From contig CAZPUR010000003.1 in assembly GCA_964589815.1 (NCBI GenBank), forward strand, positions 42,554 through 106,553: a stretch of 64,000 bases of DNA, in the 5' to 3' direction. Shown here piece after piece: positions 5,148-55,092 of this stretch (positions are counted from its first letter, which is position 1; each line of letters opens with the position of its first letter). Below the pieces are notes generated by a model, which worked only from the letters and a program-made list of their open reading frames with translations, was not told where the DNA came from and ran no database searches. Origin of the DNA: an uncultured Pseudomonadales bacterium. GTDB taxonomy: Bacteria > Patescibacteriota > Microgenomatia > UBA1400. Made by a program: the position numbers and the translations under genes.

Positions 5148-5984
5148 ATGCTAGTTGATACTCATTGCCATCTTAATTTTCAGATTTTTAAGGGTAGAGT
5201 TAGAGAAGTTATTGAGGGGGCGAAAAAAGCGGGTGTGGAGAAAATGATTGTGCCAGGAACAGACTTGGAGACTAGTAAAAAAGCAGTAGAACTGGCTGAA
5301 AAATATCAAGAGGTTTATGCGGCCGTAGGCATTCATCCCCACCATGCTAGAATTAAGAATTTAGAATTAAGAATTAAGAATAAGTTAAAAGCATTAGCTA
5401 GAAATAAGTCTGTGGTGGCCATTGGAGAATGTGGTCTGGATTATTATCAATATCAGAAAACAAAATACAAAGATTATAAAATTAATGATCAGTTCAAACA
5501 AAAGCAAAAAGAAGTCTTCAAAATACAGATAGATTTAGCTAGGGAGCTAAAACTTCCTTTAATTATTCATAATCGTAAAGCTTCTGAGGACATTTTAGAA
5601 ATAATTGGAAATTGGAAACCTGCCCGTCCGGCAGGCGGGTTGGAAATTGGAAATTTTAATGGCGTTTTCCATTGTTTTGAAGGTGACGAGAAATTATTAA
5701 CCTGGGGACTAAAACACAATTTTTATTTTGGTATTACCGGGAATGTAACTTATAATGAAAAGATCAAGCAATCAATTAGAAAAATTCCTTTAAAGAATCT
5801 ATTAACCGAAACTGATACTCCTTATTTAGTTCCGGAACCTTTACATTCTCAAAAAATCTTTCCAAATGAACCTAAAAATGTTAAAATACTGGCCAAACGA
5901 ATCGCTGAGATAAAAGGCGATTCTTTTTTAAGAATAGAAGAACAAACAACCAAGAATGCAGTTCAATTATTTAAATTAGAATAA
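5148..5984 (+). CDS. tatD: TatD-family metal-dependent hydrolase/DNase
   Basis: MLVDTHCHLNF start, GECGLDYY and LIIHNR motifs. Confidence 0.9.
   Translation: MLVDTHCHLNFQIFKGRVREVIEGAKKAGVEKMIVPGTDLETSKKAVELAEKYQEVYAAVGIHPHHARIKNLELRIKNKLKALARNKSVVAIGECGLDYYQYQKTKYKDYKINDQFKQKQKEVFKIQIDLARELKLPLIIHNRKASEDILEIIGNWKPARPAGGLEIGNFNGVFHCFEGDEKLLTWGLKHNFYFGITGNVTYNEKIKQSIRKIPLKNLLTETDTPYLVPEPLHSQKIFPNEPKNVKILAKRIAEIKGDSFLRIEEQTTKNAVQLFKLE
5605..5653 (+). repeat. 21-nt GC palindrome (CCTGCCCGTCCGGCAGGCGGG) flanked by 14-nt perfect direct repeats TTGGAAATTGGAAA, inside tatD
   Basis: Read directly: left repeat 5605-5618, core 5619-5639, right repeat 5640-5653. The ORF stays open (KPARPAGGLEIGN). Confidence 0.85.
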
Positions 5985-12624: not shown

Positions 12625-13575
12625 TTACTGATAGACGGTAGTATATTTGCCAGAGACCCAGCCTTGCTTGCCTTCTTCATATTCAATTTTATTCCAGCCA
12701 TTTTCATCTTGTTCTATAAATTTATAAACTTCGCCCGGATGAACTTCTGTAAGCACTGTTTTTTTGTCGCCGCTAGGAGAAGGTTCAGAGCGGACATTTA
12801 ACCATCCCCATTGGTTGTTATCTATTTTGACATAAGGCCTTTCCATTTCATCAGCGGCTTCAGTCGCTTCTTCATCTTCTTCTAATTCGGGAGAAGGAGA
12901 GGGTTTGGGAGAAGGTTTAGGAGAAGCTTTTGTTTCTTCTTCCTTGACTTCCTCTTTTTCTTCCTCTGTCTCTCCACCAGCTGGCGGATTTTCTTCTAAC
13001 TCTTTAGCCAGCTGGACATTGATCATTAACTTATGACCCTTAATAGTTTTAGCTTTAATAGTTTCTTCCTTAAACCCAGGAGAAGAGATAATCAGTAGAT
13101 GTTCGCCTTCTTCAATGCCTTCTAAGGTGAGTGGAGTAAAACCTTTAGGTTCGCCATTTAAAGAAACGACCACACTATCAGGGTTGCTAATAATAGAAAT
13201 TTTGGCTTCGTCTTTTTCAGTAATTGGTTCTAAACTAAGAACATAGCCGCTTGATTCTTCTTCCGTTGCTCCTAGGTTGCGGTTGACCACGGTTAAAATT
13301 CCTGAACTGAGCTTAACTATGCCTTGCCAAGAAATTATTTGGGATTCAGAAGAATCAGGGACGATTTTTAAAGTATATTCTCCTTCTTTTAAGTTTTCGT
13401 CAAAATAAGGGGTTTGACCAATATGGTCTTCGTTTAAAAAAACAGTGGCCTTAGGATTAGAAGTAACCTGCAAAGCCGCCTTCTTTCTACTGGAAATAAA
13501 AGGAAGGTTGCAAGCCGTAAGAATTAAAGCGGCAACCACGAGGCAGGAAAATGAAACAATTCTGAAGAGCTTCAT
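12625..13575 (-). CDS. lipoprotein with PEGA repeats and C-terminal SH3b-like domain
   Basis: Signal peptide plus Cys (LILTAC), two PEGA-like segments, acidic/Pro-rich linker, C-terminal WLNVRSEPS...GWVSGKY. Confidence 0.65.
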   Translation of the reverse strand: MKLFRIVSFSCLVVAALILTACNLPFISSRKKAALQVTSNPKATVFLNEDHIGQTPYFDENLKEGEYTLKIVPDSSESQIISWQGIVKLSSGILTVVNRNLGATEEESSGYVLSLEPITEKDEAKISIISNPDSVVVSLNGEPKGFTPLTLEGIEEGEHLLIISSPGFKEETIKAKTIKGHKLMINVQLAKELEENPPAGGETEEEKEEVKEEETKASPKPSPKPSPSPELEEDEEATEAADEMERPYVKIDNNQWGWLNVRSEPSPSGDKKTVLTEVHPGEVYKFIEQDENGWNKIEYEEGKQGWVSGKYTTVYQ

Positions 13576-13651: not shown

Positions 13652-13733
13652 AAGGCTATTAAGTGGCCTAGTGGTCTGGCAAAGCCAGATCTGGCTCTTG
13701 CCAGACGAAGTGATCCTGTTAGAATTAATTTTA

Positions 13734-13985
13734 ATGTTTTATGTTTATGTTTTGAAAAGTCGCACTAATGGAGATATTTACGTTGGTTACTCAAGAGATT
13801 TAAGGACAAGGATTGATGCACACAACAAAGGTAAAGTAAAATCAACTAAAGCTTATAAACCCTGGATACTGGTTTATTATGAAGCTTATAAAGGTAAAAA
13901 AGACGCTACCAAACGAGAGAAAGAGTTAAAATTACACGCGGCGAAGAAATTGTTAATCGAACATCTAAAAGAAAGTCTTAAGTAA
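13734..13985 (+). CDS. small GIY-YIG nuclease-family protein (URI domain only)
   Basis: MFYVYVLKSRTNGDIYVGYSRDLRTRIDAHN has GIY..YIG-type motifs plus a conserved R and KREKELK. The caller's GTG at 13671 lies inside hairpins. Confidence 0.8.
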   Translation: MFYVYVLKSRTNGDIYVGYSRDLRTRIDAHNKGKVKSTKAYKPWILVYYEAYKGKKDATKREKELKLHAAKKLLIEHLKESLK

Positions 13986-13988
13986 CAT

Positions 13989-14061
13989 GGCCTAGTGGCG
14001 AAGAAGCTAACGCAGCTGTCTGCAAAACAGCTATACGCCGGTGCAACTCCGGCCTAGGCCT
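13989..14061 (+). tRNA. tRNA-Cys (anticodon GCA), atypical D- and T-loops
   Basis: Manual cloverleaf: acceptor GGCCTAG/CTAGGCC, anticodon stem GCTGT/ACAGC with loop CTGCAAA, T stem GCCGG/CCGGC. T-loop is TGCAACT (G where U55 is expected) and the D-loop lacks GG. Confidence 0.7.
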
Positions 14062-14104
14062 CTTTTTTATAACCTAAGATAGTGGATAGGATTGTGAATA
14101 GGAC

Positions 14105-26459: not shown

Positions 26460-26470
26460 AATATCTAAAT

Positions 26471-26493
26471 CCCCCCGACGTAACATCGGGGGG
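26471..26493 (+). repeat. GC hairpin CCCCCCGA-CGTAACA-TCGGGGGG overlapping the rpsJ SD
   Basis: 8-bp stem. The 3' arm runs into GGAG, 9 nt before the ATG at 26505. Inverted relative at 32112-32129. Confidence 0.75.
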
Positions 26494-26504
26494 AGCACTT
26501 TCAA

Positions 26505-29723: not shown

Positions 29724-29730
29724 AGGAGAA

Positions 29731-29834
29731 TTGTTACATTGTTACATTGTTACATTGTTGATAGTTTTTTGTAATACAAATCGGAAGGCTACTGTTAGCA
29801 ATGAAGCAATGAAGCAATGAAGCAATGAAGCAAT
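29731..29834 (+). repeat. foldback spacer: (TTGTTACA)x3 + TTGTTGAT on the 5' arm, (GCAATGAA)x4 on the 3' arm
   Basis: Units pair in register (per 8 nt: 6 Watson-Crick, 1 G.U, 1 A.A). Helix base at 29731/29833. Confidence 0.8.
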
Positions 29835-31028: not shown

Positions 31029-31068
31029 AAGTTGACTATCAATAAACAACTTAATCAACTAAAAAACA
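31029..31068 (+). repeat. short copy (3' part) of the TTAAGTAGTTGATTA...CTATCAATAAACAACTTAATCAACTAAAAAACA family
   Basis: 31035-31068 is identical over 34 nt to 33058-33091 and ends at the rplP ATG. Confidence 0.8.
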
Positions 31069-31479
31069 ATGTTACAGCCAAAAAAATTAAAATACCGAAA
31101 GCATTTTCGTGGCACTAGAGCAGGAATAGCCACGGCCGGTAACGCTTTAGAGTTTGGTGAATATGGACTTAAAAGCTTAGGTAGGGGCTGGTTGAAAAGT
31201 GCTCAAATTGAGGCGGCTAGGAAAACAATAGCTCATTATACCAAAAGACAGGCTAAGCTTTGGATTAGAGTTTTTCCTGACAAAACTTATACCCAGAAAT
31301 CAGCTGGGAGCAGAATGGGGCAAGGAAAAGGCGATTTGCAGGGTTATGTAGCCGTAGTCAAACCAGGCCGGATTATTTTTGAGTTGGCAGGGGTAGAAAA
31401 AGAAATTGCCCAGGAAGCCATTAGACGGGCTGGTGCCAAATTACCTTTTAAAACGCGGTTTATAGAAAGAGAGCAGTAG
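31069..31479 (+). CDS. rplP: 50S ribosomal protein L16 (uL16)
   Basis: [15 protein letters not shown] start. Confidence 0.96.
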
Positions 31480-31718: not shown

Positions 31719-31797
31719 AAATAAGTTCAAAAGTTCATTAAGTTCATAGAGTTAATAGTAAAAAATTACTCATAACTTGTTGAGCTCATAACTAATT
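31719..31797 (+). repeat. foldback spacer, GTTCATTAAGTTCAT family copy A1
   Basis: Alignable to 34454-34547 and 41368-41463. Ends ...ATAACTAATT directly at the rpsQ GTG. Confidence 0.75.
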
Positions 31798-32025: not shown

Positions 32026-32173
32026 TGTATTAAGTAGTTGATTAGGTCCGACGCGATGGTCGGACCGTTAACTGATAGTTAACTGATAGTTTCTACCCAG
32101 TCAACGCGAGTCCTGACGTTACGTCGGGGCGAGCTAGTTAACCATAAATTAACTACTTAATTGACTATAAACG
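32026..32173 (+). repeat. foldback spacer, TTAAGTAGTTGATTA family copy with nested GC hairpins
   Basis: ATTAAGTAGTT (32030-40) is complementary to AACTACTTAAT near 32147-57. Nested GGTCCGAC-N6-GTCGGACC (32045-66) and CCTGACGTTACGTCGGGG (32112-29). (TTAACTGATAG)x2. Confidence 0.7.
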
Positions 32174-32940: not shown

Positions 32941-33091
32941 GTGTTAATTAAGTAGTTGATTAACTCGTTAACGCTCGTGTTAATTAGGTAGTTAATTAAC
33001 TAGTTTAATATAGTCCTATCAATCAACATGATCCGCCAGCTGGCGGAGAATAAATTAACTATCAATAAACAACTTAATCAACTAAAAAACA
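32941..33091 (+). repeat. foldback spacer, TTAAGTAGTTGATTA family, full copy
   Basis: 33015-33089 is identical over 75 nt to 41177-41251. TAGTTGATTA (32952-61) pairs with TAATCAACTA (33075-84). Carries palindrome TCCGCCAGCTGGCGGA (33032-47). Confidence 0.85.
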
Positions 33092-33646
33092 ATGAGTCGT
33101 TTACAACAAAAATACCAAAAAGAAATTGTTCCGGAGTTAAAAAAGGAATTTAAGATTAAAAATGATCTGGCTGTGCCTAAGGTAGCAAAAGTGGTACTTA
33201 ATGTGGGGATTGGCGAAATCGCTCATGATAAACAGGCTTTGGAAAAAGCCAAAAATACTTTAGCGGCCATTACCGGTCAGAAACCTTTAATTCGTCCGGC
33301 CAAAAAAGCAATTGCTGATTTTAAGATTAGAAAAGGCAATTCAGTCGGTCTTAAAGTAACTTTAAGAAGGAAAAGAATGTATGATTTTTTAGATAAACTA
33401 TTCTCTTTGGTTTTACCCTTGGTGCGTGATTTTCAGGGAGCTAAGCAGAATGCCTTTGATCAAGATGCCAATTATACCTTAGGCTTAAAAGAGCAGGTTA
33501 TTTTTCCTGAGGTGGACTATGATAAAATTGACAAGGTTCGAGGGATGGAGATTAGTATTGTTATCTCGACTAAAGACAAGAAAAAAGCAGCTAGATTGTT
33601 AGAATTAATGGGAATGCCGTTTACTAAGGAGGAATTAGGAAATTAG
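33092..33646 (+). CDS. rplE: 50S ribosomal protein L5 (uL5)
   Basis: SRLQQKYQKEIVPELKKEF start and the NVGIGE region. Confidence 0.95.
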   Translation: MSRLQQKYQKEIVPELKKEFKIKNDLAVPKVAKVVLNVGIGEIAHDKQALEKAKNTLAAITGQKPLIRPAKKAIADFKIRKGNSVGLKVTLRRKRMYDFLDKLFSLVLPLVRDFQGAKQNAFDQDANYTLGLKEQVIFPEVDYDKIDKVRGMEISIVISTKDKKKAARLLELMGMPFTKEELGN

Positions 33647-33653
33647 GATAAAA

Positions 33654-33705
33654 GTGATTAGTCAAAAAAAGACTAATCACTAATCACTAATCACTAATCA
33701 CTAAA
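33654..33705 (+). repeat. 10-bp perfect hairpin (GTGATTAGTC-A7-GACTAATCAC) followed by (TAATCAC)x4
   Basis: The heptamer array 33674-33701 places TAA in all three frames just before the S14 start position. Confidence 0.8.
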
Positions 33706-33891
33706 ATCGCTAAAGTTTCTAAATTTGCTAAACAGCAAAAAAAACCAAAATTTTCTAGCCGGAAGCACAACCGCTGTAAAATTTGCGGTCGACCCAGGGC
33801 CTATATTAGGCTTTTTGGCCTTTGCCGTTTATGTTTTCGTCAAATGGCCCATAAAGGAGAATTACCAGGGGTAACTAAAGCCAGCTGGTAA
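33706..33891 (+). CDS. rpsZ: 30S ribosomal protein S14 type Z (uS14), apparent ATC start
   Basis: Absent from the ORF track. Own translation: (I)[60 protein letters not shown]. 61 codons, CxxC..CxxC, collinear with Zn-type S14. No ATG/GTG/TTG in frame after the stop at 33688-90. Confidence 0.85.
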
Positions 33892-34034
33892 GCTTTAAAG
33901 AAATGACCAAATTACAAATCACAAATTCCAAACAATATCAAAACACCAAATTCAAAATCCAAAACTGTTTTGAATTTGAATATTTGAATTTAGGATTTAT
34001 TTGTCATTTGGTATTTGGTGCTTGGAATTTAAGC
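33892..34034 (+). repeat. foldback spacer, ACCAAAT/ATTTGGT family copy C2
   Basis: Base pairs GCTT/AAGC (33892-95 / 34031-34), ACCAAAT/ATTTGGT (33906-12 / 34013-19), and further pairing along the arms by manual tracing. Confidence 0.75.
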
Positions 34035-34054
34035 ATTAGTGAACGGAGTGAACA

Positions 34055-34453
34055 ATGCTGACAGATCCTATTGCTGATATGTTAATCAGAATCAAAAATG
34101 CCTGCTTGGCTAAGAAAAACCAGGCAGTACTGCCTTATTCTAAAATCAAAGAAAAAATCGCTAAAATTTTTCTTAGTCAAGGCTATCTTAATCAGGTTAA
34201 AAAAGAAAGCTTAAAGAATAAACAAGGAGAGGTTTTGATTTGTGACTTAAAGTATGAAAAAAACAGTTCAGTTATAAGAAACATACAAAGGGTTTCCAAA
34301 CCAGGGATGAGGGTTTATTTATCTTGGAAAAAATTACCCAGGCCTAGTTTTGGTATGGGGATAAGTATTATTTCTACCTCTAAAGGGTTAATGACCAATG
34401 CTGAGGCAATTAAGAAGAGACTAGGAGGAGAAGTAGTCTGTAAAATTTGGTAA
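34055..34453 (+). CDS. rpsH: 30S ribosomal protein S8 (uS8)
   Basis: MLTDPIADMLIRIKNA start. Confidence 0.96.
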   Translation: MLTDPIADMLIRIKNACLAKKNQAVLPYSKIKEKIAKIFLSQGYLNQVKKESLKNKQGEVLICDLKYEKNSSVIRNIQRVSKPGMRVYLSWKKLPRPSFGMGISIISTSKGLMTNAEAIKKRLGGEVVCKIW

Positions 34454-34547
34454 ATAAAGAGAAATAAGAAAAGAGTTCATTAAGTTCATGGAGTTAATAG
34501 TAAAAAAAATTACTCATAACTCATAACTTGTTGAACTAATAACTAAT
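34454..34547 (+). repeat. foldback spacer, GTTCATTAAGTTCAT family copy A2
   Basis: GAGTTAAT/ATTACTC top stem and GTTCAT units opposite ATAAC units. Ends ...ATAACTAATT at the rplF TTG. Confidence 0.75.
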
Positions 34548-35102
34548 TTGTCTAAAGTTGGAAAGCAACCTATTAAAATACCCGAAGGAGTAACGGTTGA
34601 GATTAAACCTAGTCAAGTGATCGTTAGTGGTCCCAGGGGAAGTTTGACTCAGGAAATCAGGTCGGAGATAAAAGTTGAAAAAAAGGAAAACCAGATTTTA
34701 GTTCAACCAAACTCGCAAAGTAAACTGGTTAAGTCTTTACACGGTTTACTAAGAAGCCTGATTGCCAACATGATTCAGGGAGTGACTAAAGGTTTTGAAA
34801 AAACTTTAGAACTACAGGGAGTCGGCTACCGCGTCAATTTAGAACAGGAAAATTTAACCTTAGCTTTAGGTTTTTCTCATCCGGTAGTAGTTAAACCACC
34901 TGAAGGAATTAAATTTCAGGTAGAAGGCAATAATTTGATTAGAGTTTTAGGTATTGATAAACAATTAGTTGGTCAGATAGCCGCTGGAATTAGAAGGATT
35001 AGACCGCCGGACAGCTACAAAGGCAAAGGCATAAGATACGAGGGTGAAGTGATTAAGTTAAAGCCTGGCAAGGCGGCCAAGACAGAAGCAGCCGCAACAT
35101 AA
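34548..35102 (+). CDS. rplF: 50S ribosomal protein L6 (uL6), TTG start
   Basis: (M)SKVGKQPIKIPEGV is the canonical L6 N-terminus. Confidence 0.95.
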   Translation: MSKVGKQPIKIPEGVTVEIKPSQVIVSGPRGSLTQEIRSEIKVEKKENQILVQPNSQSKLVKSLHGLLRSLIANMIQGVTKGFEKTLELQGVGYRVNLEQENLTLALGFSHPVVVKPPEGIKFQVEGNNLIRVLGIDKQLVGQIAAGIRRIRPPDSYKGKGIRYEGEVIKLKPGKAAKTEAAAT

Positions 35103-35114
35103 GGAGTCTAAATA

Positions 35115-35528
35115 ATGATTAAACGTTACAAGCATAAAACGCTTAAAAGAAAAATCAAGATCAGGGCCAAACTTTTGAAAATAGGTCGAAGACCCAGGTT
35201 ATCTGTTTTTCGTTCTAATAAATATATTTATGCCCAGATTATTGATGACCAAAAAGGAAAAACACTGGCGGCGGCTAGTGAAAAAGACATAAAAGAAAAC
35301 TCCAATCCGCCAGCTGGCGGACCAAAACTCCCCCGACCTCGCCTCGGCTCGGCCGAGGGCGGGCAAAACTCCAAGATTAACAGAGCGTTTCAGGTGGGTC
35401 AAATCTTGGCCAAGAAAGCCTTAAAAATAAAGATTAAAAAAGTATATTTTGACCGCGGCGGCTATAAATATCATGGCCTGATTAAAGCCTTAGCTGAGGG
35501 TGCCAGAAAAGGAGGACTGGAGTTCTAA
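35115..35528 (+). CDS. rplR: 50S ribosomal protein L18 (uL18) with a 23-codon GC-rich insertion
   Basis: RLSVFRSNKYIYAQIIDD and GGYKYHG motifs. Insertion NPPAGGPKLPRPRLGSAEGGQNS. Confidence 0.93.
   Translation: MIKRYKHKTLKRKIKIRAKLLKIGRRPRLSVFRSNKYIYAQIIDDQKGKTLAAASEKDIKENSNPPAGGPKLPRPRLGSAEGGQNSKINRAFQVGQILAKKALKIKIKKVYFDRGGYKYHGLIKALAEGARKGGLEF
35295..35371 (+). repeat. two adjacent GC palindromes, each bounded by the 8-nt direct repeat AAAACTCC (three copies)
   Basis: AAAACTCC at 35295, 35323 and 35364. Cores TCCGCCAGCTGGCGGA (35305-20) and CCCGACCTCGCCTCGGCTCGGCCGAGGGCGGG. Periods 28 + 41 = 69 nt. Confidence 0.85.
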
Positions 35529-35582
35529 TCCGCCAGCCTCGCTGAGCGGGGCCAGCTGGCAGACTAATTCCTAATTTCTAAA

Positions 35583-36071: not shown

Positions 36072-36700
36072 AACTCAACAAACTATCCCAAACAACCAAA
36101 ACAACCAAAAAAAGAGTTGGCCGCGGTTATGGTTCAGGCAAGGGCGGTCATACAGCTGGTCGAGGCCAGAAAGGCCAAAAATCACGAAGTAAAGTAGGCT
36201 TGCTTTTTGAAGGCACGAAAATGCGCAAGTCTTTAATCAGGCGTCTACCAATGCAGAGAGGCAAAGGTAAATTTAAGTCTTTTAAAAGCAAACCAATTAT
36301 TTTGAATGTTAAATATTTGAATCTTTTGAAAAGTGGGACTAAAGTAGATGTGGAAGTTTTAATTAAAGAAGGTTTGGTGGCCAAAGAAGCCTTAACCTTA
36401 GGAATGAAAATTCTAGGTGATGGGGTTTTAGAGAAGAAACTGACAGTAGTTTTGCCAGTTTCTCAGGGAGCCAAGAAAAAAATCGAAAAAGCTGGAGGCA
36501 AGGTGATAAACGCGAAAGACGCTAAAAAAAGAGAGGCGAAAAAACCTAAAATTCGTAAGCAGATTAAAAAATCACAAAAATCCTCAAAGACCAAAGAAAC
36601 CAGAACTACCCGAAAAAAACCAACCACAAAAACTAAAATAAAAAGAGGCAGTCCCGCCTTGACTCAGACTCGGCGAGGCAGGCAAAAAAAAACTAAATGA
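36068..36700 (+). CDS. rplO: 50S ribosomal protein L15 (uL15) with a long Lys-rich C-terminal extension
   Basis: [28 protein letters not shown] motif. Overlaps rpsE by 4 nt, so no rpmD between them. Confidence 0.93.
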
Positions 36701-41119: not shown

Positions 41120-41253
41120 ATATAGTTATTAAGTGGTTGATTAGCTCGCAACGCTCGCGTTAATTAGGTAGTTAATCCTATCAATCAACATGATCCGCCA
41201 GCTGGCGGAGAATAAATTAACTATCAATAAACAACTTAATCAACTAAAAAATC
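41120..41253 (+). repeat. foldback spacer, TTAAGTAGTTGATTA family, second full copy
   Basis: 41177-41251 is identical to 33015-33089. Lacks ~18 nt present in the other copy. Ends at the rpmJ ATG. Confidence 0.85.
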
Positions 41254-41367
41254 ATGAAAGTCAAAGCCTCAGTTAAAAAACGATGTAAAAAATGTAAGGT
41301 AGTAAAGCGCCGCGGCCGCATTTATATTGTTTGTAGTAATAAGCGCCATAAGCAAAGACAAGGATAA
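41254..41367 (+). CDS. rpmJ: 50S ribosomal protein L36 (bL36)
   Basis: Absent from the ORF track (37 aa). Own translation [37 protein letters not shown]. Confidence 0.95.
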
Positions 41368-41463
41368 AAAAGAGAAATAAGAAATAAGTTCATTAAGTTA
41401 TTAAGTTAATAGTAAAAGAAAAAAATTACTAATAACCAATAACCTGTTGAACCAATAACTAAT
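41368..41463 (+). repeat. foldback spacer, GTTCATTAAGTTCAT family copy A3
   Basis: GTTATTA pairs perfectly with TAATAAC where copy A2 has GTTCAT/ATAAC with a bulged C. Ends ...ATAACTAATT at the rpsM TTG. Confidence 0.75.
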
Positions 41464-41883
41464 TTGCCTAGAATATCCGGGGTTAACTTACCAGAACAGA
41501 AAAAAATAAAAATTGCTTTACAAAGCATTTATGGTATTGGTAAAAAAAATAGTTTTTTAGTTCTTAATCAAGCCCAAATAGACCCGGAGAAAAGAACTGA
41601 AGATTTAAATGATCAAGATATGGTGAGATTGCAAAAAGCGGTCGAAGCCATTCCTATGGAGGGAGCTTTAAGGAAAGTGGTCATGGAGAATATTAAACGG
41701 CTTAAACAAATAAATACTTATCGAGGTTTAAGACATGTGGCCAACCTGCCGGTTCGAGGACAAAGGACTCGTGTTAACGCTAGAACCAAAAGGGGCAAAA
41801 GAGTTACTGTGGGAGCGATGAAAAAAGAATTAGCCCAAAAACTAGAAGGAGCCCGGAAAATTAAAGGCCAGGAGGAGAAATAA
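41464..41883 (+). CDS. rpsM: 30S ribosomal protein S13 (uS13), TTG start
   Basis: (M)[25 protein letters not shown] is the canonical N-terminus. Confidence 0.95.
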
Positions 41884-44197: not shown

Positions 44198-44200
44198 AAT

Positions 44201-44230
44201 CAGCCAGAGGCTGATCGTCCTTTGGACGAA
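44201..44230 (+). repeat. double-hairpin element CAGCCAGAGGCTGATCGTCCTTTGGACGAA abutting the rplM ATG
   Basis: CAGCC-AGAG-GCTG and TCGTCC-TTTG-GACGA. Near-identical copy at 55036-55066. Confidence 0.8.
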
Positions 44231-44644
44231 ATGAAAACAAAAATTACCAGAGCCAAAGACATCAAAAGAAGTTGGCACTTAGTTGATCTTGAAGGTCAAA
44301 TTTTAGGCAGGCAGGCCAGTAAAATAGCTCAACTTTTGATGGGTAAAAACAAAGTTTATTATACGGCTGCTTTGGATTGCGGTGACTATGTGGTAGCTAT
44401 TAACGCCGCCAAGATCCAAGTCACTGGTAGAAAAAACCAGCAGAAAATGTATTTCCGCCATTCAGGTTATCCTGGGGGTTTGAAAAAATTGACTTTTAGC
44501 CAGCTTTTAAAGAAAGATCCCAGAAAAATTATTGAATTGGCGGTCAAAAATATGCTGTCCAAAAATAAACTGCGGGACCCGCGTTTAGCTCGGCTCAAAG
44601 TTTTTCCTGGCCCAGAACATGATTATAAGGATAAATTTAAATAA
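44231..44644 (+). CDS. rplM: 50S ribosomal protein L13 (uL13)
   Basis: MKTKITRAKDIKRSWHLVD start. The caller's TTG at 44222 lies in the repeat. Confidence 0.94.
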   Translation: MKTKITRAKDIKRSWHLVDLEGQILGRQASKIAQLLMGKNKVYYTAALDCGDYVVAINAAKIQVTGRKNQQKMYFRHSGYPGGLKKLTFSQLLKKDPRKIIELAVKNMLSKNKLRDPRLARLKVFPGPEHDYKDKFK

Positions 44645-45719: not shown

Positions 45720-46001
45720 ATGGCATTTGTTTATTTATCAAAAAGCTTAAAAGATAATAAGAAATATATTGGTTCAACAAATAATTTACAAAGACGTATA
45801 AAAGAACATCAAAATGGTTTAGTAAGGTCAACAAAATATAGACGGCCGTTAATTTTACTAGGTTATCAGATTTGCAACGATGTTAAAGAAGCAGCTTTTT
45901 TGGAAAGAAAATATAAAAGAAGCCATAATGTTCTTGGGAGAGCAATACAAAGAGGGAGTTTTAGATTAGTTCATTCGGGGCGTGGTGCAGTGGTAGCATA
46001 G
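45720..46001 (+). CDS. small GIY-YIG nuclease-family protein; 3' end of the ORF runs into tRNA-Pro
   Basis: MAFVYLSKSLKDNKKYIGSTNNLQRRIKEHQNG... GIY-YIG-like core. The last ~9 codons overlap the tRNA, so the true stop and length are uncertain. Confidence 0.7.
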   Translation: MAFVYLSKSLKDNKKYIGSTNNLQRRIKEHQNGLVRSTKYRRPLILLGYQICNDVKEAAFLERKYKRSHNVLGRAIQRGSFRLVHSGRGAVVA

Positions 46002-46046
46002 GCGCATGGGGTGCGTCTGGCCCCGGTTCAATCCCGGGCGCCCCGA
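45976..46046 (+). tRNA. tRNA-Pro (anticodon GGG)
   Basis: Manual cloverleaf: acceptor CGGGGCG/CGCCCCG, D-loop AGTGGTA, anticodon stem GGCGC/GCGTC with loop ATGGGGT, T arm CCCGG-TTCAATC-CCGGG, discriminator A. Confidence 0.85.
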
Positions 46047-46052
46047 CAAAGA

Positions 46053-47290: not shown

Positions 47291-47364
47291 TGAGGTAGTA
47301 AAATTTAGAAGCCACACTTCTCCCGCCAAATTGGCGGGATATGGCGAGGCAAAGGAAGGAAAAT

Positions 47365-48331: not shown

Positions 48332-48524
48332 TCCGCCTTCGCGAAAATCCGAGGGCTAATAGGCCTCGGCTGGATAGCATTTATAAAGTTTTATGATTTT
48401 CGCTTCGGCAGGATTTCAGCTATAATTCAAGATTAAGGTTGACAAATCAGAGGAAGAATCCGAGGCTTTTTAAGCCTCGGAGCTTCAATTTCCTTTTTGT
48501 CCTTGAAAATTTTCTCTTTGGGGC

Positions 48525-52081: not shown

Positions 52082-52137
52082 AGTGAATCCTGCGTGGTTC
52101 ACTAAGAAATTCTACCTTTTATGTAGAAGTTTGTCAA
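52082..52137 (-). promoter_or_regulatory. promoter (TTGACA, 17 nt, TAGAAT) plus inverted repeat AGTGAA-N10-TTCACT in the leader of the rrf2-nifS-nifU operon
   Basis: -35 at 52132-37, -10 at 52109-14, inverted repeat 52082-87 / 52098-103 (plus-strand coordinates). Confidence 0.55.
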
Positions 52138-53216
52138 GAAGCTGAAATTTTTCCTCCCCCCAAACATAGCTTACCATCATAAAAAACGGCAAATTGGCCT
52201 GGAGTAATAGCTCTTTGAGGTTGATTAAAAACAAGCTTGAGTTGTTTATTTTGGGGAGGGTAAAGAACAGCTGGTTGTTCTTGGTGACCATACCTGATTT
52301 TTGCCCTTACTTTAATTGTTTTTATGGGTGTTTTTCCAGAGATAAAATTAAAAGGCGAAAGCTCTATTTCTTTTTGAAGCAAATCTTTTTCATTTTGAGT
52401 CACAATAACTTGGTTGTTTCGAGAATCCAGTTGTTTAACAAAATATGGTCCTCCGGAAAGACCAATTCTTTTTCTTTGACCAATAGTATAAAAATGTAAA
52501 CCCTGATGTTTACCCAAAACATTACCTTGAGTATTAATGATTTTTCCTGGTTTTTGACCCAGCCTTGTTTTCAAAAACTCAGTAATTTTTTTGCTCGGAC
52601 AATAACAAAAATCCTGACTTGACTTTACTATAATTGAACTGCGCCTGCCTGCCGGCAAGGCAGGGCCGCTATTAAATAATAGTAATTTTCTAGCCATTTT
52701 TATTACTTGTTTTTTAGTATATTCTCCTAAAGGGAAAACAATATGTTTTAATTGTTCCCGGGTTAAAAAAGAAAGATAATAGGTTTGATCCTTGGCTCTA
52801 TCCTTGGCTTTCAAGAGTTGATAGCTTTTAGCTTTTAGCTTTAAGCTTTCAGCTATTCTCGCGTAGTGTCCTGTTGCCACATAATTTATTTTTCTTTTTT
52901 TAGCCAATTCCAAAAGCTTTTTAAATTTAAGTTGGGGATTACAGATAATACAAGGATTGGGTGTCCGGCCATTTTTATATTCATTAATAAAATAATCCAC
53001 TACCTTTTGTTTAAATTCTTTTTTAACATCCAAAATATAATGGGGAATTTTTAACATTTGGCAGACTTTTTTTGCACTTGCGAAAGATCTTTTGTTTTGC
53101 CAGGCAGGGATATCTAAAGAAACGCCAATCGGCTCCCAACCGTGTTTTTTCAAAAAAAAAGCGGCCATGGAAGAATCAACTCCGCCAGATAGTCCCACAA
53201 TAATTTTTTCCTTCAT
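52134..53216 (-). CDS. mnmA: tRNA 2-thiouridine(34) synthase MnmA, with a GC-palindrome insertion
   Basis: VGLSGGVDSS PP-loop and NPCIICN motifs. Insertion GPALPAGRRSS at 52641-52669. Confidence 0.93.
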   Translation of the reverse strand: MKEKIIVGLSGGVDSSMAAFFLKKHGWEPIGVSLDIPAWQNKRSFASAKKVCQMLKIPHYILDVKKEFKQKVVDYFINEYKNGRTPNPCIICNPQLKFKKLLELAKKRKINYVATGHYARIAESLKLKAKSYQLLKAKDRAKDQTYYLSFLTREQLKHIVFPLGEYTKKQVIKMARKLLLFNSGPALPAGRRSSIIVKSSQDFCYCPSKKITEFLKTRLGQKPGKIINTQGNVLGKHQGLHFYTIGQRKRIGLSGGPYFVKQLDSRNNQVIVTQNEKDLLQKEIELSPFNFISGKTPIKTIKVRAKIRYGHQEQPAVLYPPQNKQLKLVFNQPQRAITPGQFAVFYDGKLCLGGGKISAS

Positions 53217-54993: not shown

Positions 54994-55035
54994 CTTGTAA
55001 TTTTTCCTTCTTTATGTTTCAATTTAATTAATTAT

Positions 55036-55066
55036 CAGCCAAAGGCTGATCGTCCTTTGGACGAAA
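55036..55066 (+). repeat. double-hairpin element CAGCCAAAGGCTGATCGTCCTTTGGACGAAAT upstream of recA
   Basis: Differs from 44201-44230 at one position in the first loop. Confidence 0.8.
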
Positions 55067-55092
55067 TTCTCCTGCCCAAGGAAAGGACTTTT

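What the first reader, a model, noticed from the sequence alone, without database searches (positions are those of the whole stretch)
35295..35371. rplR contains two adjacent palindromic insertions, each bounded by the same 8-nt direct repeat, individually frame-breaking but together 69 nt
Seen: AAAACTCC at 35295, 35323 and 35364. Between copies 1 and 2 lies AATCCGCCAGCTGGCGGACC, and between copies 2 and 3 lies a 33-nt imperfect GC palindrome. Periods are 28 and 41 nt. Copies 1 and 3 are read ENS/QNS in the same frame and copy 2 in another (PKLP). Removing the block gives ...KENSKINR..., a normal-looking L18. Just after the stop, 35529-65 looks like the same TCCGCCAG/CTGGCAGA palindrome split by a nested insert. 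Inference: repeated insertions with an 8-bp target-site duplication hit one hotspot, and survival required the pair to restore the frame. This is direct evidence that these palindromes are, or were, mobile.
Basis: partly seen in the sequence, partly recalled or inferred. Interest (0 to 1): 0.75.

Follow-up and report, generated by a model that had tools for sequence, protein, structure and literature searches.

The report
Palindromic selfish DNA inside ribosomal gene
The ribosomal protein L18 gene of this tiny-genome (CPR-type) bacterium carries two short GC-rich palindromic repeat elements, read as 23 extra amino acids in a floppy loop; the same elements sit in other genes here and in relatives, so they resemble the selfish palindromes known from Rickettsia and yeast mitochondria.

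Summary
AAAACTCC lies at 35296, 35324 and 35365. It brackets the perfect 16-nt palindrome TCCGCCAG/CTGGCGGA (35306-21) and a 33-nt GC-rich imperfect palindrome (35332-64). The 69 nt add 23 residues to uL18, exactly where relatives without an insert read ..KNSKI...

The palindromes belong to dispersed families. P1 occurs five times in the window, against 0.04 expected, and also in other CPR genomes. GC-rich palindromes also sit in frame in tatD, mnmA, the rplO tail and a PEGA-domain gene.

All seven relatives whose extended loop was read at the DNA level carry a palindrome (six GC-rich, one AT-shifted). The types do not follow relatedness.

Flanking direct repeats of 10 nt or more occur at 5 of 84 GC-rich palindromic islands, against 0.2 expected. 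This supports insertion with target duplication.

A 73%-identical orthologue has the same CAAAACTCC-32 nt-CAAAACTCC module. The bare units (18 and 33 nt) are each in frame.

Verdict: a CPR variant of REP/RPE/GC-cluster-type palindromic elements. The enzyme is unknown.

The parts
35115..35528 (+). rplR (uL18) coding sequence, 137 aa, carrying the insert
   Evidence: Pfam Ribosomal_L18p at 1.1e-34, split into two stretches around the insert. PDB uL18 alignments cover query residues 9-59 and 86-137. The query has 26 residues where S. aureus uL18 has 6.
35296..35305 (+). Direct repeat copy 1 (AAAACTCC, extended to AAAACTCCAA), read as E-N-S
35306..35321 (+). Palindrome P1, TCCGCCAG/CTGGCGGA. With the preceding AA it is read as NPPAGG.
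   Evidence: Perfect 8+8 inverted repeat (I14). The 14-nt core has 4 matches in the window against 0.04 expected. The hairpin folds at -10.8 kcal/mol, z = -3.3.
35323..35331 (+). Direct repeat copy 2 (CAAAACTCC), read in another frame (P-K-L)
35332..35364 (+). Palindrome P2, a 33-nt GC-rich imperfect (possibly nested) palindrome, CCCGACCTCGCCTCGGCTCGGCCGAGGGCGGGC
   Evidence: A module of the same length with the same flanks exists in orthologue L162.
35364..35374 (+). Direct repeat copy 3 (CAAAACTCCAA), read as Q-N-S-K
35529..35563 (+). P1 copy directly after the rplR stop codon. It is interrupted at its centre by the 15-nt palindrome CCTCGCTGAGCGGGG (35537-51) plus a repeated CCAG (35533-36 and 35552-55).
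   Evidence: (I7, D4, D8)
33032..33047 (.). P1 copy in the rplE leader, between CTATCAATCAAC and CTATCAATAAAC
   Evidence: D1. The paralogous rplP leader at 31036-31072 has a single CTATCAATAAAC and no palindrome.
41194..41209 (.). P1 copy in a 96%-identical leader upstream of the ATG at 41254 (probably rpmJ; not tested)
12973..12988 (-). P1 copy with one mismatch inside the PEGA/SH3-domain gene (12628-13575, - strand), read as ENPPAGGE in the inter-domain linker
5605..5653 (+). tatD-like gene: [TTGGAAA]x2 - CCTGCCCGTCCGGCAGGCGGG - [TTGGAAA]x2. This is 42 nt more than a single 7-mer and is read as ..GNW KPARPAGG LEIGNF..
   Evidence: Solved TatD proteins are about 8 residues shorter at this point.
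52639..52669 (-). mnmA: a 30-nt GC-rich island holding CCTGCCTTGCCGGCAGGCAGG, read as SGPALPAGRR
   Evidence: There is a 12-residue gap at exactly this point in solved MnmA proteins. An identical 21-nt palindrome sits in the L18 loop of L164.
36628..36697 (+). rplO C-terminal tail. AAAAACTAAA at 36628 and 36688 (spacing 60) flanks a 37-nt GC-rich quasi-palindrome and gives a 20-aa extension.

Best explanation
The 69-nt block is two members of dispersed families of very short (16-37 nt) GC-rich palindromic repeat elements. They came to lie side by side in a structurally permissive, length-hypervariable loop of ribosomal protein uL18.

Shown:
- The block is an insertion relative to orthologues.
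- It is in frame and open.
- It lies between a short helix and the long helix of the L18 fold.
- The same palindromes recur in intergenic leaders and in frame in other genes of this genome, and in the same L18 loop and in the tails of L5 and L15 of other CPR genomes.
- Many copies are bounded by direct repeats made from the local A-rich target sequence.

Inferred:
- The elements are, or recently were, mobile non-autonomous DNA.
- They insert at staggered or slippage-prone breaks in A-rich tracts, duplicating 4-14 nt of target, often as doubled 7-8-nt units.
- Selection then keeps only copies whose total length is a multiple of three and which fall in loops, linkers or tails.
- The inserts are translated. 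P1 is read as NPPAGG in every coding copy.
- Afterwards they diverge quickly while keeping their symmetry, are invaded by further palindromes (nesting), or decay toward AT-rich low-complexity loop sequence.

The enzyme is unknown. No transposase, RAYT, reverse transcriptase or integrase is encoded in the window.
For: Insertion status:
- PDB and Pfam alignments break exactly at the block.
- Relatives without an insert read ..KNSKI...
- AlphaFold gives a confident core (pLDDT above 90) with residues 64-84 as low-confidence coil.

Dispersed families:
- P1 core: 4 matches against 0.04 expected.
- CCTGCC..GGCAGG type: 5 matches against 0.06 expected.
- Half-sites occur almost only inside palindromes.

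Other in-frame coding copies in the window: tatD, mnmA, the PEGA-domain gene and the rplO tail.

Other genomes:
- The identical P1 sits in the L18 loop of L165 and L228 and in the L5 tail of L119.
- The identical CCTGCCTGCCGGCAAGGCAGG sits in the L18 loop of L164.
- Other GC palindromes occupy the same loop in L162, L166, L168 and L169.

Flanking repeats: an exact flank repeat of 10 nt or more at 5 of 84 GC-rich palindromic islands, against 0.2 expected. A paralogous empty leader site exists.

Rapid turnover and independence from ancestry: L162 and L169 are 90% identical outside the loop but carry unrelated inserts. L082, 84% identical to L162 and 83% to L169, has none.

Translation: the NPPAGG frame is used in all six coding copies.
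Against: - No presence/absence polymorphism was seen. The only other assembly of this population is identical, and no relative closer than about 79% (outside the loop) exists in the databases searched.
- Repeat length is not constant, and several P1 copies (L165, L228) have no long flanking repeat. A single classical transposase with a fixed stagger therefore does not fit.
- The repeat units are A-rich and similar between loci (AAAACTCC, AAAATCC, AAATTCC, AAAAACT). Part of the flank signal could reflect K-rich low-complexity coding sequence, or a general tendency of this genome to make 7-9-nt tandem repeats.
- Window and L162 share the CAAAACTCC-32 nt-CAAAACTCC module despite 46% third-position identity. 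Simple random-target duplication does not explain that.
- No candidate mobilising enzyme was found, though only 64 kb was available.
Confidence: 0.7

Rival explanations
1. Same-site spread by homologous exchange rather than transposition. A loop allele that carries a palindrome is moved between related populations by transformation and recombination, or by biased gene conversion as for the yeast var1 GC cluster. Non-sister lineages would then share an insert type at the same codon positions, and the flanking repeats would travel with the allele.
For: Insert types are discordant with relatedness. Window and L162 (73% identical) share the 41-nt module, and L166 and L169 (80%) share the GTAG-GGGGCG type, while their nearer relatives do not. 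Unidirectional inheritance of var1 forms that differ by GC-cluster insertions is on record (PMC8811140).
Against: The interiors of the shared modules differ (13 of 33 identical between window and L162, counted by eye). Flanking gene sequence shows no locally raised identity. This rival does not explain copies of the same palindromes in unrelated genes and leaders.
Confidence: 0.12
2. The hairpins are functional RNA or DNA structures selected in place, for example mRNA processing or stability signals or pause sites within the ribosomal-protein operon. The protein insert would be a tolerated by-product, and no mobility is involved.
For: - All seven relatives with an extended loop that were read at the DNA level carry a hairpin in this loop.
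- L165 and L229 differ by two both-sided pair changes that keep pairing.
- Other copies sit in leaders and directly after stop codons.
Against: - Relatives with no hairpin exist within the same clade (L226, L227, L082).
- Hairpin sequences and positions vary.
- P2 does not fold better than shuffles (z = -0.6) and the whole block only marginally so (z = -1.7, 11 of 200 shuffles).
- Rfam gives no hit.
- Function alone does not account for target-derived flanking repeats.
Confidence: 0.08
3. An ordinary lineage-specific loop expansion produced by replication slippage of 7-8-nt units, with the palindromic character incidental.
For: L082 has (AAAAGCG)x4 in the same loop. The genome has many 8-9-nt tandem arrays. 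Of the 120 closest homologues, 58 have longer loops, mostly K/S/E-rich.
Against: Slippage copies local AT-rich sequence. It cannot create a 75-90% GC perfect palindrome that is identical to copies at four other loci and in other genomes.
Confidence: 0.04
4. Translational bypass. The identical codons in the flanking repeats (TCC...TCC) would act as take-off and landing sites, so ribosomes hop over the hairpins as in T4 gene 60 or the Magnusiomyces mitochondrial GC-cluster inserts. This would have let individually frame-breaking inserts survive.
For: There are matched codons on either side of a stable hairpin. GC-cluster inserts in coding regions that are skipped during translation are on record (PMC8811140).
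Against: - Every coding insert seen in the window is in frame and free of stop codons.
- P1 is read in the same one of three frames in all six coding copies. That pattern is expected only if the insert is translated.
Confidence: 0.03

Closest known systems
Yeast mitochondrial GC clusters, including the in-frame clusters of var1, the mitochondrial ribosomal protein gene (PMC8811140 and the works it cites)
   Same: - Short GC-rich palindromes scattered through an AT-rich genome, mostly intergenic but also in frame in a ribosomal-protein gene.
- Terminal direct repeats read as target duplications.
- Fast divergence, and merging of clusters into new ones.
- Tandem arrays (from the title of Weiller et al. 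1989 and my own knowledge).
   Different: Those are mitochondrial and eukaryotic, with terminal repeats of only 2-3 nt (AG, TAG). Here the flank repeats are 4-14 nt, often doubled 7-8-nt units, and the host is a free bacterial genome. There is no sequence similarity.
Rickettsia palindromic elements (RPE)
   Same: Palindromic repeats inserted in frame into many protein-coding genes, tolerated at permissive surface positions, and best explained as selfish DNA. The in-frame insertion and surface tolerance are from my own knowledge. PMC3733652 (read) records an RPE-1 interrupting a R. conorii gene. PMC10969869 and PMC1779305 turned up in search but were not opened.
   Different: RPEs are about 100-150 bp, specific to Rickettsia, and not reported with long target duplications. 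The elements here are 16-37 nt, and several unrelated palindrome types use one site.
REP elements (GTAG- or CGTC-tagged), including REPs inside genes (PMC3733652)
   Same: Imperfect GC-rich palindromes of 20-40 nt in multiple families. Some copies lie inside ORFs, even at the same site in orthologous genes (Xanthomonas recB). The L166 and L169 loop palindromes start with GTAG.
   Different: P1 and P2 carry no GTAG or CGTC tag. No RAYT gene was seen. REPs were not reported from CPR bacteria in that survey. I know of no target duplication reported for REP mobilisation (own knowledge; not checked in the paper).
Bacterial MITEs
   Same: Non-autonomous, with inverted-repeat ends and target-site duplication. 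Occasional in-frame insertions into genes.
   Different: MITEs are typically 50-500 bp with a constant duplication length set by the parent transposase (own knowledge). Here the element is little more than the two arms, and the duplication length varies.

Membership tests
REP / RAYT system | Imperfect palindrome of about 20-40 nt, present in many copies | tested here: met
   P1 is 16 nt and P2 33 nt. There are five P1 copies and four CCTGCC-type copies in 64 kb, far above chance.
REP / RAYT system | Conserved GTAG (or CGTC) tetranucleotide at one end | tested here: not met
   Neither tag nor its complement occurs at the ends of P1 or P2 (35296-35374). GTAG does precede the palindromes in L166 and L169.
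REP / RAYT system | Cognate RAYT (IS200/IS605-like tyrosine transposase) gene in the genome | tested here: inconclusive
   No such domain among the 20 non-ribosomal ORFs scanned. Only 64 kb of the genome is available.
MITE | Terminal inverted repeats plus a target-site duplication of fixed length | tested here: inconclusive
   Inverted arms are present. Flank repeats are enriched, but their lengths vary from 4 to 14 nt and they are absent at some copies.
MITE | Length about 50-500 bp, derived from a parent IS with matching ends | tested here: not met
   The elements are 16-37 nt. No IS is present in the window.
Rickettsia palindromic elements | In-frame insertion into protein-coding genes at tolerated positions | tested here: met
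   rplR, tatD, mnmA, the rplO tail and the PEGA-gene linker. The insert is predicted to be disordered.
Rickettsia palindromic elements | Element of about 100-150 bp belonging to the RPE sequence families of Rickettsia | tested here: not met
   The length is 16-37 nt. The host is CPR/Microgenomates-like: the best named hits are Woesebacteria and Levybacteria, and there is no L30 gene.
Mitochondrial GC clusters | GC-rich palindromic clusters in an AT-rich genome with short terminal direct repeats | tested here: met
   The window is 37% GC and the islands are at least 75% GC. Terminal repeats are present but longer than AG or TAG.
Mitochondrial GC clusters | Resident in fungal mitochondrial DNA | tested here: not met
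   This is a bacterial ribosomal-protein operon.
Translational bypass inserts (T4 gene 60, Magnusiomyces) | Insert not decoded: frame-breaking or stop-containing, with matched take-off and landing codons | tested here: not met
   Matched codons exist, but the block is 69 nt, open and in frame. P1 always uses the NPPAGG frame.

The most novel reading that the evidence does not exclude
CPR/Patescibacteria harbour a so far undescribed class of ultra-short (16-37 nt) GC-rich hairpin elements. Under this reading they integrate by a mechanism unlike RAYT or classical transposases, producing long, variable, often doubled target duplications in A-rich tracts. Candidate mechanisms are integration of hairpin oligonucleotides at staggered nicks, or target-primed copying of terminator-like hairpins. 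Their continual insertion, nesting and AT-biased decay would then be a main source of the lineage-specific loop and tail extensions of CPR ribosomal proteins.
Probability: 0.25. Interest if true: 0.75.

Novelty: new variant of a known kind. Interest (0 to 1): 0.55.

Why it matters
Selfish palindromes that colonise coding sequence are textbook for Rickettsia and yeast mitochondria, but I found no report of them for the Candidate Phyla Radiation. These genomes are tiny and streamlined, and their ribosomes are already known to be unusual.

Here an essential ribosomal protein carries two such elements. The same loop is occupied by different palindromes in many related lineages. That gives a natural series for studying three things:
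- how such elements insert, since filled, empty and nested states are all available;
- how proteins tolerate them;
- whether the variable loops and tails of CPR ribosomal proteins are built from decayed insertions.

There is also a practical point for annotation. These inserts split profile matches and can be mistaken for frameshifts or assembly errors.

Tried and rejected
- Closer relatives or alternative alleles. Scans of genome contigs and metagenome contigs with the L18 protein found nothing above 61% identity. The protein search gave at most 66% over the whole protein. The one other contig of this population is identical. The 0-, 1- or 2-insert allele test could therefore not be done.
- Scan of viral contigs for TCCGCCAGCTGGCGGA. 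It gave 55 hits, mostly in high-GC contigs and compatible with chance, so it was uninformative.
- Rfam at gathering thresholds over the whole window: no family.
- Uptake-signal-like motif. Rejected because half-sites are not over-represented outside palindromes.
- L047 flank repeat. Rejected as a false positive: the GC island encodes the conserved PAAGS motif of the L15 N-terminus in a Chitinophagales genome.
- Pfam scan for a mobilising enzyme. It found only a stand-alone GIY-YIG nuclease and RmuC, with no link shown to the palindromes.
- The Fusarium 'palindromic microsatellite' paper gave nothing relevant.
- Mapping the loop onto a ribosome structure for solvent exposure was not possible, because no coordinates are available through these tools. 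Only the AlphaFold monomer was obtained.
Full report
**1. The observation**

The region was read directly. The outer pair extends to 10 nt (AAAACTCCAA, spacing 69). The inner pair extends to 9 nt (CAAAACTCC, spacing 41).

Between copies 1 and 2 lies AATCCGCCAGCTGGCGGACC. Its core, TCCGCCAG/CTGGCGGA (35306-35321, here P1), is a perfect 16-nt palindrome (I14). Between copies 2 and 3 lie 33 nt of GC-rich imperfect palindrome (35332-35364, here P2).

As RNA, P1 folds at -10.8 kcal/mol (z = -3.3). P2 folds at -17.8 kcal/mol, which is not better than GC-matched shuffles.

The gene is rplR: an ORF at 35115-35528 of 137 aa, matching Pfam Ribosomal_L18p at 1.1e-34.

An 8-mer occurring three times within 80 nt is rare in shuffles (0.34 loci per shuffle). 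It happens at about eight loci in the real window, because this genome is rich in 7-9-nt tandem repeats.

A second assembly of the same population (L001) is 100% identical over 2,637 nt.

**2. The block is an insertion in a permissive, hypervariable loop**

Alignments to solved uL18 proteins cover query residues 9-59 and 86-137. The query has 26 residues where S. aureus uL18 has 6.

Deleting the 69 nt gives ..SEKDIKENSKINRAF... Relatives without an insert read ..GEKKNSKIEKA.. (P0028, L226) and ..SKNSEQKSKIDKAF.. (P0006, L227).

An AlphaFold model built on 49 homologues has a confident L18 core. Residues 64-84 form a low-confidence coil between helix 57-63 and helix 85-104.

Among the 120 closest homologues, 58 have this loop at least 6 residues longer than the basal state, by up to about 40 residues. 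Most named homologues are Woesebacteria, Levybacteria or other Patescibacteria. There is also no L30 gene between rpsE and rplO. Together these place the window in the CPR/Microgenomates. This placement is an inference.

**3. The palindromes are dispersed repeat families**

The 14-nt core of P1 has four matches in the window against 0.04 expected:
- rplR;
- the rplE leader (33032);
- a 96%-identical leader upstream of the ATG at 41254, which is probably rpmJ (41194);
- the PEGA/SH3-domain gene (12973-12988, - strand, one mismatch).

A fifth, interrupted copy follows the rplR stop codon (35529-35563).

A second family, CCTGCC..GGCAGG, has five matches against 0.06 expected. Half-sites occur almost only within palindromes. 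What is repeated is therefore the palindrome as a unit, not a single uptake-signal-like motif.

**4. Other genes in the window carry them in frame**

| Gene | Insert | Evidence |
|---|---|---|
| tatD-like (5148-5984) | [TTGGAAA]x2-CCTGCCCGTCCGGCAGGCGGG-[TTGGAAA]x2, read ..GNW KPARPAGG LEIGNF.. |; solved TatD proteins are about 8 residues shorter here |
| mnmA (52134-53216, - strand) | 30-nt GC island, read SGPALPAGRR |; solved MnmA proteins have a 12-residue gap at this point |
| PEGA/SH3 gene | ENPPAGGE in its inter-domain linker | |
| rplO C-terminus | 20-aa extension from a 37-nt GC-rich quasi-palindrome between two AAAAACTAAA copies 60 nt apart | |

All of these inserts are open and in frame. 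All remaining palindromes in the window are intergenic.

**5. Relatives**

DNA was fetched for ten L18 orthologues of the same clade; an eleventh, L082, came from the metagenome scan. All seven of these whose loop is extended and was read at the DNA level have a palindrome in it (six GC-rich; the L229 copy is AT-shifted):

| Locus | Loop content |
|---|---|
| L165, L228 | the identical P1, read NPPAGG |
| L164 | CCTGCCTGCCGGCAAGGCAGG, identical to the mnmA copy in the window, between AAAAACTAAAAAC repeats 42 nt apart |
| L162 | [AAAACTCC]x2, then 33 nt of GC-rich sequence, then [AAAACTCC]x2 |
| L166, L169 | GTAG-GGGGCG..CGCCC palindromes (two in tandem in L169) |
| L168 | GGCCAGCC..GGCTGGTC |

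Three loci have no palindrome: L226, L227 and L082. L082 instead has (AAAAGCG)x4.

Insert type does not follow relatedness:
- L162 and L169 are 90% identical outside the loop yet carry unrelated inserts.
- L082, 84% identical to L162 and 83% to L169, has none.
- Window and L162 are only 73% identical (third-position identity 0.46), yet share CAAAACTCC-32 nt-CAAAACTCC with the same 41-nt spacing.

P1 also lies in the C-terminal tail of L5 in another genome (L119). There it is flanked by an exact 10-nt repeat, CAAAATCCAA, and is again read NPPAGG. A CCTGCC-type copy lies in the L15 tail of L113.

**6. Flanking repeats are a general feature but not a fixed one**

I surveyed 133 low-GC loci (608 kb) and found 84 GC-rich palindromic islands with AT-rich flanks.
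- Five have an exact flank repeat of 10 nt or more, against 0.2 expected from matched random sites.
- Nine have a repeat of 8 nt or more, against 3.1 expected.
- One 9-nt case (L047) proved to be native coding sequence and was discarded.

The two leader copies of P1 lie between CTATCAATCAAC and CTATCAATAAAC. A paralogous leader upstream of rplP has a single CTATCAATAAAC and no palindrome, which amounts to an empty site within the same genome.

Repeat lengths range from 4 to 14 nt. The repeats are often doubled 7-8-nt units on each side (tatD, L162, L164, L119). A few bases of filler may separate the palindrome from the repeat. Some copies (L165, L228) have no long repeat.

**7.

The sum 28 + 41 = 69 is correct if each palindrome is credited with one repeat copy. 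Other decompositions fit equally well:
- AA+P1 is 18 nt. This is exactly the in-frame NPPAGG unit that stands alone in L165, L228 and P0107.
- P2+C is 33 nt.
- The remaining repeat material (CC+8+8) is 18 nt.
- P1 can also be read as a 16-nt insertion with a 4-nt duplication (CCAA) into a tandem [8][8] like that of L162.

In tatD and L162, four copies of the unit (+21 or +24 nt) and the palindrome (21 or 33 nt) are each in frame.

So selection for an in-frame total is evident. Two successive lethal frameshifts in an essential gene are not required. A single complex repair event is also possible.

The shared 41-nt module in L162 shows that AAAACTCC is not a random target. It is either a preferred target, or part of the unit, or it moved with the allele.

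**8. Fate after insertion**

L165 and L229 are 85% identical at the DNA level with no gaps. Yet at the palindrome they differ at 8 of 16 positions: TCCGCCAGCTGGCGGA against TTCTTCAACCGAAGGG. The differences include two pair changes on both arms (G-C to T-A and C-G to T-A). The peptide changes from PPAGG to SSTEG.

L166 and L169 show the same outer arms with different interiors. The element after the rplR stop is a P1 split at its centre by another small palindrome plus a 4-nt repeat.

These patterns point to fast divergence that keeps symmetry, to nesting, and to drift toward AT-rich loop sequence. This part is inference.

**9. Mechanism and rivals**

The best reading is selfish, non-autonomous palindromic DNA that inserts with target duplication. 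Selection then filters copies down to loops, linkers, tails and leaders.

P1 uses the same one of three frames in all six coding copies. That argues the inserts are translated and argues against ribosomal bypass.

The remaining rivals are:
- same-site spread by recombination or biased conversion, as for yeast var1 (PMC8811140);
- in-place selection for an RNA hairpin;
- plain slippage.

No mobilising enzyme is encoded in the window. Pfam scans of 20 ORFs found only a stand-alone GIY-YIG nuclease and RmuC.

**10. Comparison with known systems**

The closest analogues are:
- yeast mitochondrial GC clusters. These give in-frame insertions in the ribosomal-protein gene var1, have terminal AG or TAG repeats read as target duplications, and show rapid change and merging (PMC8811140);
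- hairpin elements of other mitochondria (PMC2800124);
- REPs, including REPs inside ORFs at the same site in orthologues (PMC3733652);
- Rickettsia RPEs and bacterial MITEs (known to me; PMC10969869 and PMC1779305 appeared in search but were not opened).

The present elements differ in four ways: they are far shorter, they have longer and variable flank repeats, P1 and P2 lack the GTAG or CGTC tag, and their host is different.

Full-text searches found no report of such elements in CPR/Patescibacteria. I therefore rate this a new variant of a known kind, of moderate interest.

Noticed in passing
window 29730-29830: Between rpsS and rplV there are two tandem 8-mer arrays: (ATTGTTAC) about 3.6 times and (AGCAATGA) about 4.5 times. 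They are roughly inverted relative to each other around a 37-nt spacer.
   Followed up: partly
window 32970-33095, 41150-41257, 31036-31072: A leader module of about 125 nt is duplicated upstream of rplE and of the ATG at 41254 (probably rpmJ; 96% identical). Its 3' 37 nt (CTATCAATAAACAACTTAATCAACTAAAAAACAATG) recur upstream of rplP. There is no obvious Shine-Dalgarno sequence before the ATG.
   Followed up: partly
window 31731-31797, 34482-34548, 41398-41464: A second repeated AT-rich module of 67 nt ends exactly at the starts of rpsQ, rplF and rpsM. It may be an internal promoter or leader unit.
   Followed up: no
window 44199-44232 and 55034-55067: A 34-nt double-hairpin element, ATCAGCC(A/G)(A)GGCTGAT CGTCCTTTGGACG AAAT, is 97% identical at two sites. 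It lies just upstream of, or overlapping, the starts of rplM and recA. The second hairpin begins with CGTC.
   Followed up: no
window 33646-34055: The space between rplE and rpsH, where rpsN (S14) is expected, holds only two odd ORFs of 49 and 52 aa. The first resembles S14 but lacks the usual cysteines. This was judged by eye only.
   Followed up: no
window 13671-14062: A stand-alone GIY-YIG nuclease gene (Pfam 2.8e-17) lies directly upstream of tRNA-Cys.
   Followed up: no
window, whole: Rfam at gathering thresholds reported no family at all, although ARAGORN finds tRNA-Cys (13989-14062) and tRNA-Pro (45976-46047).
   Followed up: no
L082 380-420 (L18 loop): (AAAAGCG)x4, a tandem 7-mer, sits in the same L18 loop and is read KAKSEKRKAK. 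It has no palindrome. It may represent a pre-insertion or footprint state.
   Followed up: partly
proteins P0018 and P0032 (L18 homologues): P0018 has a separate 6-7-aa insert (TKVAPSG) later in the protein. P0032 (179 aa) has an internal duplication of about 60 aa covering the N-terminal half.
   Followed up: no
window 26470-26494, 32045-32066, 48459-48481, 47321-47339: Further GC-rich hairpins of the TCC...GGA type lie in intergenic positions: tuf-rpsJ, rpsQ-rplN, and upstream of ORF 47341. Their flank repeats and family membership were not analysed individually.
   Followed up: no
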